From a phage: a DNA stretch of 64,000 nt. The position numbers and the translations under genes are program-made. Below the pieces are notes generated by a model. That model did no database searches, had not been told where the DNA came from, and saw nothing but the letters and a program-made list of their open reading frames with translations. The stretch is taken from the sequence record PZ445511.1. One strand, written 5' to 3'. This document shows, piece by piece, positions 3,616 through 43,582 of the stretch (position 1 is its first letter; each line of letters opens with the position of its first letter).

Positions 3616-5135
3616 ATATCGCTGGCCTGTTCACCTGTTGAATTTTCAGCTTTGTCTTTCTTAGCACGTTTAGGTTGAGCTGGTTTATCCTTTTCAATAG
3701 GAATAACGAACTCAGCTTCCATTTGCGCAATATCTTCCATTGCTAGGTTGGTAGTGTTATCCATTCGCAGAGTTTCCCAGTTCATCTTAGGCATAAACTT
3801 CACACTATCAGAGGAACGAGTCTTAACGAAGTCAAACATAATAGCACCTTGACCATTATCAGCTTTTGCAGCATTAAGATTAGCAGCCATATCTGCGGAA
3901 TCAAGAATCCCTTTAGACATACGCGTTCTACCATCTTGGTCAATCTGATAAGGAGCAACACCAGCCACGTTATGTTTCTGGCAGATAGATTTGAAAGACG
4001 AACTAACAACCATCTGTTCTTTCCAGTCATACATGTCAATGGTCTTTGAATCTGGAAGTCTTGTTTGGTTAATATAGTCTAGAAGAGCTACAGTAACCTT
4101 ATCACCATACTTAGCAACTAGTTTATTTAATTCTACGTCAACCGTCGTAATAGACAGTTCAGGATCGTAAACGATGATCATAGGAGTGTGAAGTTCATAG
4201 CTTTCAAGGAGTTTACTTTCCATATCATAGAAGTCACTCATTTTAGCCATAGTGTACTGCTTAACGAAACTATCGAAAAGCTCTTCACCACCATTAAACA
4301 TTCTAGCCCTAGTTCTGGCTAATCTCAACAGAGCAGCACCTTCAAGAGTGTTATTACGCATTGCTAATGCAGATACTCCAGCTAACATAGCCAGATTACG
4401 TCTAAACACTTCGTGCTCTTTCATCTCAATTGAGAAATATGGAGCAATGTCTCCATTCAAATATTGCTGAACCTGTATGTTTGAACAGATAATGGATTTA
4501 CCAGTACCACGCCAACCACCAAGCAGTAACGTTTCTGTGCGAGCTAAACCAATTTGAGCGTCGAACTCATTACAAATACCAAGAGCGATCAAGTTCAGTT
4601 TGGTATCTTCTTCTCTCTGGAAAATACGCATTGTGTCCGCGTTGAATACCTTTCCAGTATTCGTTACTTTCTCTTCTAATTTTAAGTGAAGGGAGGCAAC
4701 TCGATTGAGAATTTCTCCCTGATCCAGCATTGTTAAATCTTGAAGCACGTCTGTTTCTAGAAGTTTCAGGAATAGATCCTGTGTATATTCAGCTTCTAGG
4801 ACTTCAAGTGCCTGTTCCATGCTCACTTCTGGAATTTGAGTGTTAGCTAAGACGACAAGAGCTTGAGAAAGGCGGGCGTTCCTATTGGCCTCAAGCATCA
4901 GTGCGTCAATGGACGGCATTGCGTTATATTTCTTATAATAATTCTGGACGGCTTGGTAAATTGAGGAGAAAGCGTCATTAAAATGATCTTTATGCAGTTT
5001 TGAGAATGTTTCCAATGCTATTTGCTTCTGTTCAGAAGCGAGAAGCATCTTCAACACTACAGCTTGCACGTTAAACAAGGTCATTCTCCTTTGCACGCTT
5101 TCGTGCCTTCTAAATGCAAAAAGGGGAAGGAGCAT
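3612..5135 (-). CDS. DnaB-like replicative DNA helicase
   Basis: 507 aa; Walker A-like GGWRGTGKS; 4-nt overlap (ATGA) with primase gene; start could instead be the internal Met at 5084. Confidence 0.8.
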   Translation of the reverse strand: MLLPLFAFRRHESVQRRMTLFNVQAVVLKMLLASEQKQIALETFSKLHKDHFNDAFSSIYQAVQNYYKKYNAMPSIDALMLEANRNARLSQALVVLANTQIPEVSMEQALEVLEAEYTQDLFLKLLETDVLQDLTMLDQGEILNRVASLHLKLEEKVTNTGKVFNADTMRIFQREEDTKLNLIALGICNEFDAQIGLARTETLLLGGWRGTGKSIICSNIQVQQYLNGDIAPYFSIEMKEHEVFRRNLAMLAGVSALAMRNNTLEGAALLRLARTRARMFNGGEELFDSFVKQYTMAKMSDFYDMESKLLESYELHTPMIIVYDPELSITTVDVELNKLVAKYGDKVTVALLDYINQTRLPDSKTIDMYDWKEQMVVSSSFKSICQKHNVAGVAPYQIDQDGRTRMSKGILDSADMAANLNAAKADNGQGAIMFDFVKTRSSDSVKFMPKMNWETLRMDNTTNLAMEDIAQMEAEFVIPIEKDKPAQPKRAKKDKAENSTGEQASDI

Positions 5136-28850: not shown

Positions 28851-29552
28851 ATGAAATTCAAGCCCTTTGGTATGCTGGACATTGAATCTCTAGGTACTCC
28901 AGGAAATTGCGGTACTACTCATATTGCAATGCCTTCTTTCGCTTTTGTAGCGATGCACGGAATTGATAAAGATCCTGATCTGGTATTCGTTACTCTAGAC
29001 GTTCAAGATCAGCTTAATGCGGGTGCTAAGGTAACTGCCTCTACTATTGCATTCTGGATGGATCAAGCTAAAAACAGTCCATCTGCGCTCCATATTATGG
29101 AGGCTCTAAATGGTCGTAATCCTAAACTGATTGCCTTCCGTGATGGTAAGCATCACTGCACTAATGACGTAGGCTCTAATTATGCTGCCTTCTCTATGGC
29201 TCAGAACATTATGGAATTGTCTCTAGGAGATAATGCTCTGTATTATGGCAATGGCCCAGAGTTTGATATGACAATCTACTCTGCAAATACGTTCCATGCC
29301 GGAACCCATGAAGAAATAGTTCCGTGGAAATTCTGGAACTTAGGTAACGTTCGATCTTTCCGTAATCAGTGGATGCAAGCTGGTTATAGCTATAAAGATC
29401 TAGAAGCCGAAGGTGCTAGCTGGGCAAAAGCTAAAATGGAAAAGATGGACACCATTCGTTATGGAATCTATCCTGTGAAGCATGATCCAGCATTCGATGC
29501 TTTAGTTGAAAGTTATTGTGTAGCCGTCATGATCGAAAAAATCAAAATTTGA
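28851..29552 (+). CDS. DEDDh-family 3'-5' exonuclease (DnaQ-like)
   Basis: 233 aa; Exo I-like LDIESLG near N-terminus and Exo III-like H..D (VKHDPAFDA) near C-terminus. Confidence 0.55.
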   Translation: MKFKPFGMLDIESLGTPGNCGTTHIAMPSFAFVAMHGIDKDPDLVFVTLDVQDQLNAGAKVTASTIAFWMDQAKNSPSALHIMEALNGRNPKLIAFRDGKHHCTNDVGSNYAAFSMAQNIMELSLGDNALYYGNGPEFDMTIYSANTFHAGTHEEIVPWKFWNLGNVRSFRNQWMQAGYSYKDLEAEGASWAKAKMEKMDTIRYGIYPVKHDPAFDALVESYCVAVMIEKIKI

Positions 29553-29553
29553 T

Positions 29554-29582
29554 TTGCTTTCAGCTCCAAAATTCTGTATAAT
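29554..29582 (+). promoter_or_regulatory. Sigma70 promoter
   Basis: ttgctt-17bp-tataat. Confidence 0.55.
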
Positions 29583-29622
29583 ATATTCATAAATTTGAGA
29601 GAACAACAAAAGGAAAATAATT

Positions 29623-29858: not shown

Positions 29859-30497
29859 ATGACTACTCGTATCTCTAAAACTCGTGCTCTGGCAACTATC
29901 AAGTCTCTAGAAGCTAAAATCCGTAAAGCTACTGAACAACAGCTTTTGATTGCTGTTGGTGAAGGTAAGGATAAGAACCAAGTTGTAGTTGGCGCTGCAA
30001 TCGAAGTAGATGCTCTGTCTACTCGTATTAAGACTGATTTCCAGTCTCTGTTGGATATGATGTCCCAGCGTGATCATCTGAAAGCAGCGCTGATCAAGAG
30101 CAATGCTGAAACTGTTGTAGAGATCGGTTCCCGATCTATGACTGTTGCGGAAGCAATCGAAGCTAAGCGTTCTATGGAACTCAAAGCTCAGTTGCTGGCT
30201 AACATGCGTAAGCAGTTCCATGCTGCTACTGTTAAGTTTAACACTCAGAAGGCTCAGTTTGATAACAAGTATGAGCGTTTGCAGGATACCATGGCTACCC
30301 GCGACAAGAAGACTTCTGAGGATGAAGTTAAGATGCAGCTTAACCTGCTGGAACTCAAGAACACTCCGTTCCTGATCGATCCGCTGGAGCTGGAAAAGCT
30401 GATCAAGCAACACGACGAAGAATACCAGGATTTTGCAACCAACGTTGACTTTGTTCTGTCTGAGTCCAACGCCTCTACTTTTATCGAAGTAGAGTAA
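29859..30497 (+). CDS. Hypothetical protein
   Basis: 212-aa ORF with SD aaggaag; high-expression-like codon usage. Confidence 0.6.
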   Translation: MTTRISKTRALATIKSLEAKIRKATEQQLLIAVGEGKDKNQVVVGAAIEVDALSTRIKTDFQSLLDMMSQRDHLKAALIKSNAETVVEIGSRSMTVAEAIEAKRSMELKAQLLANMRKQFHAATVKFNTQKAQFDNKYERLQDTMATRDKKTSEDEVKMQLNLLELKNTPFLIDPLELEKLIKQHDEEYQDFATNVDFVLSESNASTFIEVE

Positions 30498-30887
30498 TGA
30501 TTTAAAAGACTAGTAAATCGGTAGACGAAAGCCCAAGCATCTTACCTCGCAGCAGCGGTTGAAATACGAGGTTAAATAAGACCGCTGACCATACTATAAA
30601 GTATAATCTATTGGAGATTATCTTAATTTATTTTTCGGCAGATGTTGCATCTGTCAAAATAAAACAAGACGTCGTTGGTAGTACCAACACAACTTCAAAG
30701 ATCAACGCTCAAGTATGAAAGCTGAAAAGTTAAAAGCACTCAAACTTCTAACCTTCTAAAGCTAAAAGATGCAAAGTATTCGTTGATGATTCAAACCCTA
30801 GATCAAAGGTACATGGCTCATAAGATATGGCCTGTGGCGCCTCTAGGCTGTTTATCGGTTTACTAGTTTCACAATTTAAAAATGTAT

Positions 30888-30916
30888 TTGCTAATTAGTT
30901 TAGTTTTCTGTATAAT
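30888..30916 (+). promoter_or_regulatory. Sigma70 promoter
   Basis: ttgcta-17bp-tataat. Confidence 0.55.
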
Positions 30917-30946
30917 ATATTTTTAAATTGATGAGACGAGGCTATT

Positions 30947-31210
30947 ATGATTTTTCATATTCTTATTGATGATGTGCGTAACCTTCATGGAATGGACATT
31001 ATAATTCGAACCCCCGAAGCCGCTGTTGAGTTTCTGAATAAAACCGATACCACAGGTCATTTCGTTTATATGGATAACGATCTGGCTGTAGATGATATGG
31101 AAGGTTATCAAATTCTTCGTTTACTCCTAGAATTTGGTCAGAGACCCAAGAAAGTGGTACTAGTAACCTCGAACCCTTCGTCTAAGAGACCATGCGTAAT
31201 GATCTCTTAG
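30947..31210 (+). CDS. Hypothetical protein
   Basis: 87-aa ORF after promoter and gagacgagg RBS. Confidence 0.5.
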   Translation: MIFHILIDDVRNLHGMDIIIRTPEAAVEFLNKTDTTGHFVYMDNDLAVDDMEGYQILRLLLEFGQRPKKVVLVTSNPSSKRPCVMIS

Positions 31211-31268
31211 ACGAAGGGTATCAAGAAAGCCCTAATCGTATTGAGTACGATTGGCCGGAGTAAATAAA

Positions 31269-32927: not shown

Positions 32928-32965
32928 TAATAGTGGGGTGCCGAAACCACTTATGTAACAACACT

Positions 32966-33037
32966 GCCGTCCTAGTATAATAGGTATTATTAGGGCTTCA
33001 CCGCCTGAAGATGTGGGTTCGAGTCCCACGGTCGGAA
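32966..33037 (+). other. tRNA-like element (canonical T-arm, non-canonical anticodon arm, no CCA)
   Basis: gtgggTTCGAGTcccac T-arm plus 6-of-7 acceptor pairing; 5-nt loop where anticodon loop should be. Confidence 0.3.
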
Positions 33038-33499
33038 AGAGTTGGATAACTGGTGCTTCTAATGGCGAAGCAATCGCAGGCAGTTGCGCACTGCCAAAAC
33101 CACGCGGTAGTTGGTTCCAGGCTAACCAACCACTCTTGAAAAGTATATACTACGGTTTTGCTTGTTCAGGAAGCTTCGCATCGAAAATCGGAGGTGCGAT
33201 TTTATCAGACCGCGTGGAGGACGTCTCTCCGTTAAGTGACGAAAAGTGGGACGATTCAGGTAGAGCTGGATATGGAACACCTATACATATGCGGAGTGCG
33301 CACAAAGCATATTGCGGTGGTACTAAACGAAATTAGGAGTCATGACCTGCACAAGTTTAGTATGTCATAACCGATGTACATTCAGTACAAAAACCACTGA
33401 AGCTAAGATAGATAGTCACCTTGACTTAAACTGGAAGATATTGTCTGACGGAAGGGCTGCAGAGCTTAATCTGAGGGGGCTGACCCTACCTACCGTCGG

Positions 33500-39725: not shown

Positions 39726-39800
39726 GCACCTATCGTCTAATGGTTAGGACATCAGGATTTCAATCTGAGAATTGAACTCCGATTCTCCGTGGGTGTGCCA
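39726..39800 (+). tRNA. tRNA-Glu-like (anticodon TTC) with degenerate T-arm
   Basis: Good acceptor, D- and anticodon arms (loop atttcaa); T-arm tgaac/tccgatt/ctccg pairs poorly; CCA encoded. Confidence 0.45.
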
Positions 39801-42939: not shown

Positions 42940-43299
42940 TTGCAAATGCAATTATCAAGCAAGATTCAAGGCTATTTTGGTCATGTAACAATGGAGTTCG
43001 CTATCTCTAAAGGTTGGGATTTCGAGCAAGATCTAGCTGAGTTCTACAAAGATATTGATCTGAACGTACCATACATGGGACTCTCCACTGGTCAAGAGAT
43101 CACAGAAGGCGATGTGTTCAAGGCAAGTCAAGGTGAGGTAACACCTAATTTTGCCAAGTTCTGGTTAGGACTTACTTTGAAGGAAGATGCACCAGAGGAT
43201 GGTGTGGTTATGCAGAGTATGCACTCTGGAAGCTCTGATTACCTTTTCGTTAGCGACGTTAAGGAACTACAAGAAATCGCTAAAAATGTACTTGCTTGA
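42940..43299 (+). CDS. Hypothetical protein
   Basis: 119-aa ORF (TTG start per track; internal ATG 6 nt later) after aaggaa RBS. Confidence 0.5.
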   Translation: MQMQLSSKIQGYFGHVTMEFAISKGWDFEQDLAEFYKDIDLNVPYMGLSTGQEITEGDVFKASQGEVTPNFAKFWLGLTLKEDAPEDGVVMQSMHSGSSDYLFVSDVKELQEIAKNVLA

Positions 43300-43320
43300 T
43301 GCTTAATTTCTTGTTATAAT
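43292..43320 (+). promoter_or_regulatory. Sigma70 promoter overlapping upstream stop codon
   Basis: ttgctt-17bp-tataat then gatgagga-GAAA-tcctcatc hairpin in leader. Confidence 0.55.
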
Positions 43321-43582
43321 ATTTATATAAATTGATGAGGAGAAATCCTCATCAAAGTTCACTAAGGTATTAGCTCGACCTAGGGCTGGCTGCCAAAAAG
43401 CACAATTGCAATTAGACCCCTAATGGCGGGGGATACTTTGCAATAAGTTCTAGATTAGTCCACTAGATTCAGTGGCAACTGAATAGTGTATCGGGTTTGT
43501 GAAGAGCGGTTATCCTCTACTGGCTAATGTCTGAGGGTAATACGCACACCGAGCTAATAGCCTTAGTAAACTTAAAGATTTT

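What the first reader, a model, noticed from the sequence alone, without database searches (positions are those of the whole stretch)
30498..30887. 390-bp non-coding gap with palindromes before a promoter
No ORF occupies this gap in a densely packed region. It contains a near-perfect palindrome gttggtaGtaccaac and inverted repeats cagatg...catctg and gcctgtggcgcctctaggc, suggesting protein-binding sites or a small RNA gene.
Basis: seen in the sequence. Interest (0 to 1): 0.45.

Follow-up and report, generated by a model that had tools for sequence, protein, structure and literature searches.

The report
Uncatalogued structured RNA in phage T5
The "empty" gap in this T5-like phage holds a roughly 363-base folded RNA that matches no RNA family in the catalogue searched here, always follows the same protein gene of unknown function, and recurs from phage T5 to Bacillus-type bacteria.

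Summary
The window is a T5-like phage. The gap and its three palindromes are real, but the palindromes are minor parts of a larger object.

Window 30507-30869 (+) is a ~363-nt structured RNA:
- a 21-bp closing helix with an invariant G·U
- an H-type pseudoknot
- about 14 tandem 7-nt units (GWUYAAA)
- a 51-56-nt 3' domain, AAAUCC-helix...GGCUG

The helices covary strongly across relatives (97% of cells paired against 64% in shuffles; 0 of 500 shuffles reach the observed values).

The RNA always lies just after a 212-aa helical protein gene (phrog_1491, DIP1984/3KDQ-like fold, mislabelled "tail fiber"). This holds in T5-like, Vequintavirinae, Lactococcus, Bacillus and other phages, and in 78 of 80 bacterial loci, mostly Bacillota. 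A search with the RNA motif alone also recovered the protein gene in 18 of 18 assessable hits.

Rfam 15, ARAGORN and the literature searches gave no match.

Most likely it is a gene-linked ribonucleoprotein RNA whose repeat array is a fixed-valency binding platform. That function is inferred, not shown. There is no expression or binding evidence.

The parts
29859..30497 (+). Partner gene: 212-aa helical protein (T5.085 homologue, phrog_1491, DIP1984/3KDQ-like fold). Databases label it 'tail fiber protein'.
30507..30869 (+). The whole structured RNA, from the first to the last base of the closing helix P1. The true transcript ends are unknown.
   Evidence: The MFE fold reproduces P1, the 3' helix, pseudoknot stem S2 and both variable hairpins, with z = -5.9.
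30507..30527 (+). P1 5' strand, AGACUAGUAAAUCGGUAGACG.
   Evidence: Pairs with 30849-30869: 21 bp including 3 G·U. None of 300 shuffles reach its score. The inner 11 bp are 100% paired in 20 family members, and 9 of those 11 pairs show double changes.
30528..30543 (+). Junction after P1. It reads GAAAGC here; the family consensus is GAAAAC followed by ACUUAAA.
   Evidence: G11, A12 and A13 are invariant in alignment A2. Sequences.
30544..30587 (+). H-type pseudoknot. S1 is ACCUCG 30544-49 with CGAGGU 30567-72. S2 is CAGCGGUU 30553-60 with GACCGCUG 30580-87. Loop 3 is A-rich.
   Evidence: Found at the same place, with different sequences, in nearly all of 34 members. Only 71 of 2040 shuffles reach the observed scores.
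30588..30638 (+). Linker. It is about 100% conserved among T5-like phages up to roughly 30620, then variable.
30639..30653 (+).
   Evidence: T5-like relatives keep it through compensatory changes. Some variants look like an anticodon arm (CAGC-CUUUUAA-GCUG).
30674..30688 (+).
   Evidence: Other T5-like phages have GUCG...CGAC at this position.
30693..30795 (+). Array of about 14 tandem heptamer units, consensus G-W-U-Y-A-A-A. Non-coding, because the period is 7.
   Evidence: Autocorrelation is 0.445 at lag 7, 0.42 at lag 14 and 0.37 at lag 21, against about 0.22 off-phase. 27 of 31 sequences peak at lag 7, and the 5' control region shows no period. Position weight matrix. Unit count peaks at 14 (32 of 56 scorable sequences) with array length about 96-99 nt.
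30793..30850 (+). 3' domain. AAAC, then the outer helix CCUAGA 30797-802 with UCUAGG 30842-847. Probable inner hairpin GGCU 30815-18 with GGCC 30829-32. Possible GGU 30808-10 with GCC 30839-41. C30848 is a single-base hinge to P1.
   Evidence: RNAalifold predicts the outer helix unaided, and 36 of 36 sequences keep all 5 pairs. The helix is 100% paired. Covariance-model hit at E = 3.6e-13, the only hit in the 64-kb window.
30849..30869 (+). P1 3' strand, UGUUUAUCGGUUUACUAGUUU. U30849 forms the invariant G·U with G30527.
   Evidence: the G·U is present in 20 of 20 sequences.
30888..30916 (+). T5-type early promoter of the next transcription unit, TTGCTA-17-TATAAT. Not part of the RNA.
   Evidence: T5 annotates a promoter at the equivalent position, 43067-43141.

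Best explanation
Window 30507-30869 (+) encodes a member of an uncatalogued class of structured non-coding RNA, 250-400 nt long.

Shown:
- The fold. A long closing helix ends in an invariant G·U. It is followed by an H-type pseudoknot, a variable hairpin region (which in some relatives holds a whole tRNA or a T-arm-like hairpin), about 14 tandem 7-nt units (GWUYAAA, roughly 98 nt) and a compact 3' domain that abuts the closing helix.
- An essentially obligate position, 5-90 nt downstream of one protein gene (phrog_1491, DIP1984-like) and on the same strand. This holds in many phage lineages and in bacterial chromosomes.

Inferred:
- The RNA is transcribed with that gene, from the promoter-like sequence near 29555-29585 in this phage. 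In several relatives a terminator immediately follows the RNA.
- The closing helix and terminal domains define and protect a discrete RNA.
- The RNA works as a ribonucleoprotein. The fixed-length repeat array would be a multivalent platform binding a defined number of copies of a protein. The co-encoded helical protein is the most likely partner.

My estimates: about 0.95 that it is a real structured RNA of this strand, about 0.8 that it is co-transcribed with the gene, about 0.5 that it binds the neighbouring protein, and about 0.4 that the array is the binding platform. What the particle does for the phage is unknown.
For: Conservation:
- Two blocks of the gap are 99-100% identical in 27 T5-like relatives, against 80-95% for the flanking genes.

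Structure:
- On a gapless 20-sequence alignment, 97.4% of cells are paired against 63.5% in shuffles. There are 115 double-change cells against 35.5, and the covariation score is 0.928 against 0.222. No shuffle of 500 reaches these values. Slid controls give 23-44% paired.
- RNAalifold finds the 3' helix unaided, with 36 of 36 sequences intact.
- P1 exceeds every one of 300 shuffles in 22 of 34 sequences.
- The pseudoknot is reached by only 71 of 2040 shuffles.

Strand:
- The G·U closing P1 is invariant, and G·U pairs are frequent elsewhere.
- All 84 covariance-model hits are on the gene's strand.
- Terminators follow the RNA in L037, L047, L051, L052, L063 and L307.

Link to the gene, tested from both directions:
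- Nearly all of 52 distant protein-anchored loci have an ORF-free gap of 300 nt or more after the gene.
- An RNA-motif-only scan gave 20 true hits. Of these, 18 of 18 assessable have the gene just upstream.
- A model built from viral sequences alone finds the 3' domain 200-330 nt after the gene in 78 of 80 bacterial loci, and in phages BCP78, AM5, 7-11 and KB57.

Array:
- The period is 7.
- The unit count peaks at 14 across lineages.
Against: - There are no expression data, mapped ends or binding data of any kind.
- In T5-like phages no terminator or dedicated promoter flanks the RNA. A discrete RNA therefore requires processing that I did not show.
- The partner protein has no recognisable RNA-binding domain and no Pfam family. 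Its only structural relative, 3kdq, has unknown function.
- The unit count comes from a heuristic segmentation that failed on 13 of 69 sequences.
- The register of P1 was chosen by complementarity. The 3' helix register was not.
- The inner hairpin of the 3' domain is only 62% paired in the MAFFT alignment.
- Gene linkage alone would fit equally well a cis-acting 3'-UTR element or an RNA that neutralises the protein.
Confidence: 0.5

Rival explanations
1. [quoted passage not shown] The helical protein is harmful or needs restraint, for example a membrane-active 'septicolysin'/ClyA-like bundle. The co-transcribed RNA sequesters it through its repeat array.
For: - It is a stand-alone two-part module with its own terminator in a non-prophage chromosomal context.
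- Its distribution across unrelated phages and bacteria is patchy and looks mobile.
- Short tandem repeats in a protein-linked RNA recall ToxI.
Against: - The RNA lies downstream of the protein gene, not upstream.
- The units are 7 nt, not 34-45 nt.
- The protein lacks the ToxN/AbiQ fold.
- PADLOC gave no hit.
- The module is found in all of the roughly 440 T5-like records that match this region, which is unusual for an addiction module.
Confidence: 0.15
2. Decoy or sponge for a host factor. The array titrates a host RNA-binding protein or nuclease, such as RNase E, an anticodon or tRNA nuclease, Hfq or S1. The neighbouring protein would be only an accessory.
For: - In phages the RNA sits among tRNA arrays and RNA-processing genes: an Rv2179c-like 3'-5' exoribonuclease and a cREC-domain protein.
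- The units resemble T-loop or anticodon-loop heptamers (GUUCAAA).
- tRNAs are embedded in the RNA in L034 and L294.
Against: - The module also occurs in bacterial chromosomes with no phage context.
- The association is with the protein gene rather than with tRNAs: 7-11, AM5 and BCP78 have no tRNA directly next to the RNA.
- No known binding motif was identified.
Confidence: 0.15
3. A purely cis-acting 3'-UTR element of the upstream mRNA, controlling stability, translation or autoregulation, with no separate RNA product.
For: It starts 9 nt after the stop codon. It is always on the same transcript side, and in several loci a terminator follows directly.
Against: About 300-400 nt with a pseudoknot, a 14-unit array and near-100% nucleotide conservation is far more than known 3' stabilisers need. 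In 27 T5-like relatives the RNA's conserved blocks are more conserved than the gene itself.
Confidence: 0.12
4. A DNA-level element: a replication origin, iterons or palindromic operator sites for a DNA-binding protein.
For: The middle is AT-rich with short tandem repeats and palindromes, and the T5 origin is poorly defined (my own knowledge, not checked here).
Against: - The helices keep complementarity, not sequence, and use G·U pairs.
- The invariant G·U would be a C·A mismatch on the other strand.
- The element is tied to a gene and strand in bacteria as well, with terminators.
Confidence: 0.03
5. A degenerate relative of tmRNA, RNase P RNA or a Y RNA.
For: - The order closing helix, then GAAA, then pseudoknot recalls tmRNA P2/PK1. 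So does the smpB-ssrA gene order (from memory).
- The T5 clade has GACGAAAGCCC and GGCUGUUUAUCGGU, which resemble E. coli M1 RNA CR-I and its 3' end (from memory).
- Some members carry tRNA-like inserts, as YrlA does.
Against: - ARAGORN finds no tmRNA.
- Rfam tmRNA, RNase P and YrlA models give nothing at the element at E up to 1-10, in the window and 27 loci.
- The similarities to M1 RNA and tmRNA lie in positions that covary freely in the rest of the family, so they are coincidental.
- There is no acceptor or CCA end and no tag reading frame, since the period is 7.
Confidence: 0.03

Closest known systems
tmRNA (ssrA) with SmpB
   Same: Similar size, about 360 nt. A long helix formed by the two ends, immediately followed by an H-type pseudoknot with an A-rich loop, then a less structured central stretch and structured 3' modules. 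The gene lies directly downstream of a protein partner gene in many genomes (the smpB-ssrA order is from my own knowledge).
   Different: There is no tRNA-like domain, no CCA end and no resume codon or tag ORF (the period is 7). ARAGORN and Rfam RF00023 are negative at the element. The partner protein is an all-helical DIP1984-like fold, not an SmpB barrel.
Bacterial Y RNA (YrlA) with Ro/Rsr
   Same: A modular RNA closed by a long terminal stem and encoded next to its protein partner. Some members carry a tRNA or T-arm-like module (L034, L294, L044/L052). It occurs in phages and in RNA-repair-type neighbourhoods.
   Different: There is no Ro/TROVE protein and no RF02553 hit, except on an embedded genuine tRNA (26.6 bits, E 0.18). 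It is much larger. Y RNAs have no pseudoknot or heptamer array.
Type III antitoxin RNAs (ToxI, CptI, TenpI)
   Same: A protein-linked RNA made partly of short tandem repeats. A two-part module found in both bacteria and phages.
   Different: The repeats are 7 nt rather than 34-45 nt. The RNA lies downstream of the gene. The array is flanked by large conserved structured domains. The protein is not a ToxN/AbiQ endoribonuclease.
CsrB/RsmZ-type sponge RNAs
   Same: The nearest working analogy: many copies of one short motif in a single RNA, providing multivalent protein binding.
   Different: The motif is GWUYAAA rather than GGA in hairpin loops. The copy number is fixed at about 14 in strict tandem. 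There is no CsrA partner. This is an analogy only.
GOLLD and ROOL (large ornate phage-associated RNAs)
   Same: Large structured RNAs of unknown function, often in phages and next to tRNA genes.
   Different: No Rfam match. It is smaller and has a different architecture. It has an obligate protein-gene partner, which GOLLD and ROOL lack.

Membership tests
tmRNA (RF00023) | tRNA-like domain: acceptor stem formed by the two ends, a T-arm and a 3' CCA | tested here: not met
   ARAGORN finds no tmRNA in the window or in 46 related loci. The 3' end after P1 reads UUCACAAUU, with no CCA.
tmRNA (RF00023) | Match to the covariance model | tested here: not met
   No hit at the element at E up to 10, up to 5 or up to 1. 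The same search did find a genuine tmRNA elsewhere, at L083:1-226.
tmRNA (RF00023) | Internal tag-peptide reading frame | tested here: not met
   The central region has a 7-nt period, not 3. The small ORFs are not conserved.
Bacterial RNase P RNA (RF00010/RF00011) | Conserved CR-I and CR-V forming P4; match to the model | tested here: not met
   No Rfam hit. The CR-I-like and 3'-end-like strings occur only in the T5/L030/KB57 clade, and those positions covary freely in other members.
Y RNA-like (YrlA, RF02553) | Adjacent Ro/Rsr (TROVE) gene and a Ro-binding stem; match to the model | tested here: not met
   The neighbouring gene is phrog_1491 with no Pfam family. The only sub-threshold YrlA hits fall on genuine tRNAs.
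Type III toxin-antitoxin | Tandem 34-45-nt antitoxin repeats upstream of a ToxN/AbiQ-fold endoribonuclease gene | tested here: not met
   The units are 7 nt. The RNA lies downstream of the gene. The protein's best fold match is 3kdq. PADLOC gave no hit.
GOLLD / ROOL / other Rfam 15 families | Match to any of 4227 covariance models | tested here: not met
   Nothing at the element in the window, in 10 viral loci, or in 16 bacterial loci plus phage AM5.
DIP1984 family (NF038048; PDB 3kdq), for the partner protein | Sequence match above the NCBIfam cut-off, or clear fold identity | tested here: inconclusive
Sigma-70 T5 early promoter (flank of the gap) | -35 and -10 hexamers with 17-nt spacing and an A-rich upstream region | tested here: met
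   TTGCTA-17-TATAAT at 30888-30916, 10 of 12 matches. T5 annotates a promoter at the equivalent site.

The most novel reading that the evidence does not exclude
This is a previously undescribed ribonucleoprotein system: a roughly 300-400-nt RNA with a 14 x 7-nt repeat array, plus a DIP1984-like helical protein. It is shared by model phage T5, many other large virulent phages of Gram-negative and Gram-positive hosts, and the chromosomes of spore-forming Bacillota. The array would assemble a fixed-stoichiometry protein oligomer, for example 14 subunits or 7 dimers, with a new function in RNA metabolism or in phage-host conflict.
Probability: 0.4. Interest if true: 0.9.

Novelty: categorically new. 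Interest (0 to 1): 0.8.

Why it matters
T5 has been a model phage for about 70 years, yet this region is unannotated in its reference genome.

A large structured RNA class would join a very short list of such RNAs of unknown function. Its covariation is strong, it has an obligate protein partner, and it ranges from enterobacterial phages to Lactococcus and Bacillus phages and Bacillota chromosomes.

Unlike GOLLD, ROOL or raiA, it comes with a partner gene and a genetically tractable host system (T5 in E. coli). Its function is therefore directly testable.

It also corrects a widespread misannotation ("tail fiber protein") and gives annotators a new RNA gene to call in more than 700 phage genomes.

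Caveat: novelty here means absence from Rfam 15, from every GenBank or RefSeq record inspected, and from the open-access papers searched. A description in subscription journals cannot be excluded.

Tried and rejected
- **Small ORFs in the gap**. They are not conserved; T5 has a stop after 10 codons.
- **tRNA or tmRNA**. None was found at the element.
- **Rfam** at gathering and permissive thresholds, on the window and 27 related loci. Nothing matched at the element.
- **RNase P-like and tmRNA-like sequence resemblances**, recalled from memory. Rejected because those positions covary freely outside the T5 clade.
- **Rad anti-retron of T5-like phages**. This is a different gene, a 189-aa Toprim protein.
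- **T5 nick consensus (PuGCGC) at GGCGCC.** The motif is too short to mean anything, and no nick is annotated there.
- **Intrinsic terminator.** The only match is on the minus strand and is hairpin V2.
- **First IMG/VR motif scan**. My pattern had one N too many, and all 120 hits were chance. The corrected pattern worked.
- **AFDB Foldseek library.** It was unavailable.
- **Inner structure of the 3' domain.** Only partly resolved. MAFFT misaligns the sub-clades, giving 62% paired.
- **Literature searches** for a T5 transcriptome or ncRNA, DIP1984, heptamer-repeat RNAs and T5.085. Nothing relevant was found.
- **Homing-endonuclease insertions.** In L005 and L008 the insertion lies downstream of the promoter, not inside the RNA.

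Full report
**Context.** The window is a T5-like phage (Demerecviridae). The region 30300-31100 is 100% identical to Salmonella phages vB_SenS-3, vaffelhjerte, gmork and PMBT36, and about 440 T5-like records match it. The gap lies between the homologue of T5.085 (212 aa, 29859-30497, +) and an early promoter, TTGCTA-17-TATAAT at 30888-30916, that drives the T5.084 homologue. A 28-gene tRNA array follows downstream. In the T5 reference genome the equivalent stretch, 43142-43504, carries no feature.

**Observation.** The gap, the promoter and the three repeats are all present at the stated positions. The only small ORF that any record annotates here (35 aa, 30611-30718) is not conserved; T5 has a stop after 10 codons.

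Positions 30519-30608 and 30759-30878 are 99-100% identical, while the flanking genes are 80-95% identical. Positions 30609-30668 are variable, at about 60%. Non-coding DNA that is more conserved than the genes around it calls for an explanation at the nucleotide level.

**The element outside T5-like phages.** I fetched loci encoding relatives of the upstream protein. They share 31-42% amino-acid identity and come from contigs of 5-350 kb. Nearly all have an ORF-free stretch of 300 nt or more directly after the gene. A profile of the T5-like gap hits 13 of them at that position, on the + strand.

**Structure.** Comparing 31-34 distinct sequences gave one common architecture.
1. A closing helix P1 of 13-21 bp. 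Its sequence differs completely between lineages. In the window it pairs 30507-30527 with 30849-30869: 21 bp including three G·U pairs.
2. A GAAAAC-type junction.
3. An H-type pseudoknot. In the window, S1 is 30544-49 with 30567-72, and S2 is 30553-60 with 30580-87.
4. One to three variable hairpins.
5. A tandem-repeat region.
6. A 3' domain of nearly constant length, 51-56 nt. It reads AAAUCC-NNNG...CNNN-GGCUG, and its last C is followed directly by the 3' strand of P1.

**Formal tests of the fold.**
- I built a gapless 20-sequence alignment of the inner 11 bp of P1 plus the 3' outer helix. On it, 97.4% of cells are paired, against 63.5% in shuffles. There are 115 cells changed on both sides, against 35.5. 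The covariation score is 0.928, against 0.222. None of 500 shuffles reaches these values, and sliding the partner by 1-3 columns drops pairing to 23-44%.
- The P1 register in that alignment was chosen by complementarity. The 3' helix was anchored on sequence motifs only.
- RNAalifold, run on an independent MAFFT alignment of 36 3' domains, predicts that helix unaided. All 36 sequences keep all five pairs.
- P1 exceeds every one of 300 shuffles in 22 of 34 sequences. The others have an interrupted P1, which my ungapped score underrates.
- The pseudoknot score is reached by only 71 of 2040 shuffles.
- The window sequence folds at -103.7 kcal/mol (z = -5.9). The MFE structure contains P1, S2, both variable hairpins and the 3' helix.
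- The inner hairpin of the 3' domain covaries by eye (GAGU/ACUC, GGGU/ACCC, UCGG/CCGA, and others). It is only 62% paired in the MAFFT alignment, so I rate it probable.

**Strand.** The minus strand folds about as stably (z = -5.2), so thermodynamics does not decide the strand. Four other lines of evidence do.
- The pair closing P1 is G·U in 20 of 20 sequences, and G·U or U·G types are common throughout.
- The element is always on the strand of the upstream gene.
- In L037, L047, L051, L052, L063 and the Solibacillus locus L307, an intrinsic terminator follows it on that strand.
- All 84 covariance-model hits are on the + strand.

**The repeat array.** The roughly 110 nt before the 3' domain have a clear 7-nt period.
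- Self-identity is 0.445 at lag 7, 0.42 at lag 14 and 0.37 at lag 21, against about 0.22 off-phase.
- 27 of 31 sequences peak at lag 7.
- The 5' part of the RNA shows no period.
- The unit consensus is G-W-U-Y-A-A-A.
- A heuristic segmentation gives 14 units (about 96-99 nt) in 32 of the 56 sequences it could score, with most others at 12-16. This holds from T5-like phages to Bacillota. It failed on 13 of 69 sequences.
- A period of 7 excludes coding.
- In the window the array spans 30693-30795.

**Link to the protein, tested from both sides.**
- Starting from the RNA. A corrected IUPAC pattern for part of the 3' domain left the three helix positions on each side free. It found 21 stretches in IMG/VR. 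Twenty have 5 of 5 complementary helix pairs. Eighteen of the 18 with enough upstream sequence encode the protein just upstream on the same strand. The single non-complementary hit has no such gene.
- Starting from the protein. It occurs in 744 phage records. These include T5-like phages, Vequintavirinae, Salmonella phage 7-11, Lactococcus 949-like phages, Bacillus Bastillevirinae, Vibrio, Pseudomonas and Xanthomonas phages, and Erwinia and Ralstonia jumbo phages. In the four annotated records I opened, the space after the gene (340-550 nt) carries no feature.
- In bacterial genomes. A scan of one genome per GTDB species found 189 relatives. Most are in Bacillota chromosomes: Lysinibacillus, Solibacillus, Paenibacillus, Brevibacillus, Bacillus and Clostridium.
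- With a covariance model. A model of the 3' domain built only from viral sequences hits 78 of those 80 loci. All hits are on the + strand, 200-330 nt after the gene, with E from 6e-18 to 1e-3. It also hits phages BCP78, AM5, 7-11 and KB57. In the 64-kb window it gives exactly one hit, 30793-30850, at E = 3.6e-13.
- In Solibacillus silvestris the gene, the RNA and a terminator stand alone among cell-wall and spore genes, not in a prophage.

**The partner protein.**
- It has no Pfam family.
- PHROGs calls it "tail fiber protein". Nothing here supports that label.
- The AF2 model is confident (pLDDT 90): long helices plus a small sheet.
- PADLOC gives nothing.

**Comparison with known RNAs.** Rfam 15 gives no match at the element at permissive thresholds. 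This covers the window, 10 viral loci, and 16 bacterial loci plus phage AM5. Those same searches did find tRNAs, a cobalamin riboswitch, a skipping-rope RNA and a phage tmRNA in the flanks, so the method was working. ARAGORN finds no tmRNA.

From memory, I noticed resemblances between the T5 sequence and tmRNA (CGAAA-CCCAAG before PK1) and E. coli M1 RNA (GAAAG-CC; GGCU-UAUCGGU). These lie in positions that covary freely in the rest of the family, so I reject them as coincidence.

Eight literature searches found no description. The T5 anti-retron Rad is a different gene.

**Interpretation.**
- Shown: a structured RNA of the + strand, with a defined architecture and an essentially obligate position after one gene.
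- Inferred: co-transcription with that gene. No promoter lies between them; the nearest promoter-like sequence upstream is near 29555-29585.
- Inferred: release or definition of the RNA by the closing helix.
- Inferred: function as a ribonucleoprotein in which the fixed-length array binds a set number of protein copies, most simply the co-encoded protein.
- Rivals, listed separately with estimated weights: an RNA that neutralises the protein (type III TA-like), a decoy for a host factor, a purely cis-acting 3' UTR, a DNA element, and a degenerate tmRNA, RNase P RNA or Y RNA.
- Nothing here shows what the module does for the phage.

**Verdict.** The real object is much larger and, as far as these libraries show, undescribed. 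The main limits are the complete lack of expression or binding evidence, and the possibility of a prior description outside the libraries searched.

Noticed in passing
window 31172-31216 (inside the T5.084 homologue, 30947-31210): A perfect 16-bp inverted repeat, CCCTTCGTCTAAGAGA...TCTCTTAGACGAAGGG. PMBT36 (identical over 30300-31100) and T5 have an imperfect quasi-palindrome here (CCCAGTAGCTAAAGAGA in PMBT36). In this genome the left arm has become the exact complement of the right arm and lost one base. That frameshifts the cREC_REC-domain protein, giving 87 aa instead of 105. It looks like a template-switch 'quasipalindrome correction' mutation, or a sequencing artefact.
   Followed up: partly
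L034:3729-3805 and L294:2198-2271; also L044 and L052 (about 100-130 nt into the RNA): A complete tRNA gene sits inside the RNA, between the pseudoknot and the repeat array: tRNA-Thr in L034, and a tRNA (RF00005) hit in L294. L044 and L052 carry a perfect T-arm-like hairpin (GCTGGTTCGAATCCAGC) at the same position. Excision of the tRNA by RNase P/Z would leave a two-piece RNA held together by P1.
   Followed up: partly
L083:1-226 (Lactococcus phage AM5): A phage-encoded tmRNA (RF00023, 51.7 bits, cut at the locus edge) lies about 2.3 kb upstream of the protein-RNA module.
   Followed up: no
L227:2519-2647 (Paenibacillus xylaniclasticus): A skipping-rope RNA (RF02924, 54 bits) lies about 80 nt after the new RNA, which spans 2140-2436.
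   Followed up: no
L270:2336-2396 and 2698-2754 (Parabacteroides MAG): Two covariance-model hits for the 3' domain, about 360 nt apart. This may be a tandem duplication of the whole RNA.
   Followed up: no
window 29859-30497 and about 740 phage records: The partner protein is widely annotated as 'tail fiber protein'. It lies in the early region and has a DIP1984-like helical fold, and nothing supports a tail-fibre role. The label appears to be propagated misannotation.
   Followed up: partly
window 28851-29552 and 30947-31210: The genes around the module suggest RNA processing or repair. One is an Rv2179c-like 3'-5' exoribonuclease domain (PF16473, 1.3e-7). The other is a cyclic-phosphate-processing receiver domain (PF20274, 3e-12).
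   Followed up: no
L005 and L008, about 4082-4900: In two T5-like relatives, a 273-aa ORF starts at the start codon of the T5.084 homologue, directly after the conserved promoter. It is probably a homing endonuclease, but it was not searched against any family here. The RNA is left intact.
   Followed up: partly
window 32965-33038 and 39726-39797: ARAGORN calls a tRNA with a UCA anticodon ('SeC', possibly an opal-suppressor type) that overlaps predicted ORFs. Rfam finds one tRNA (39726-39797) that ARAGORN misses.
   Followed up: no
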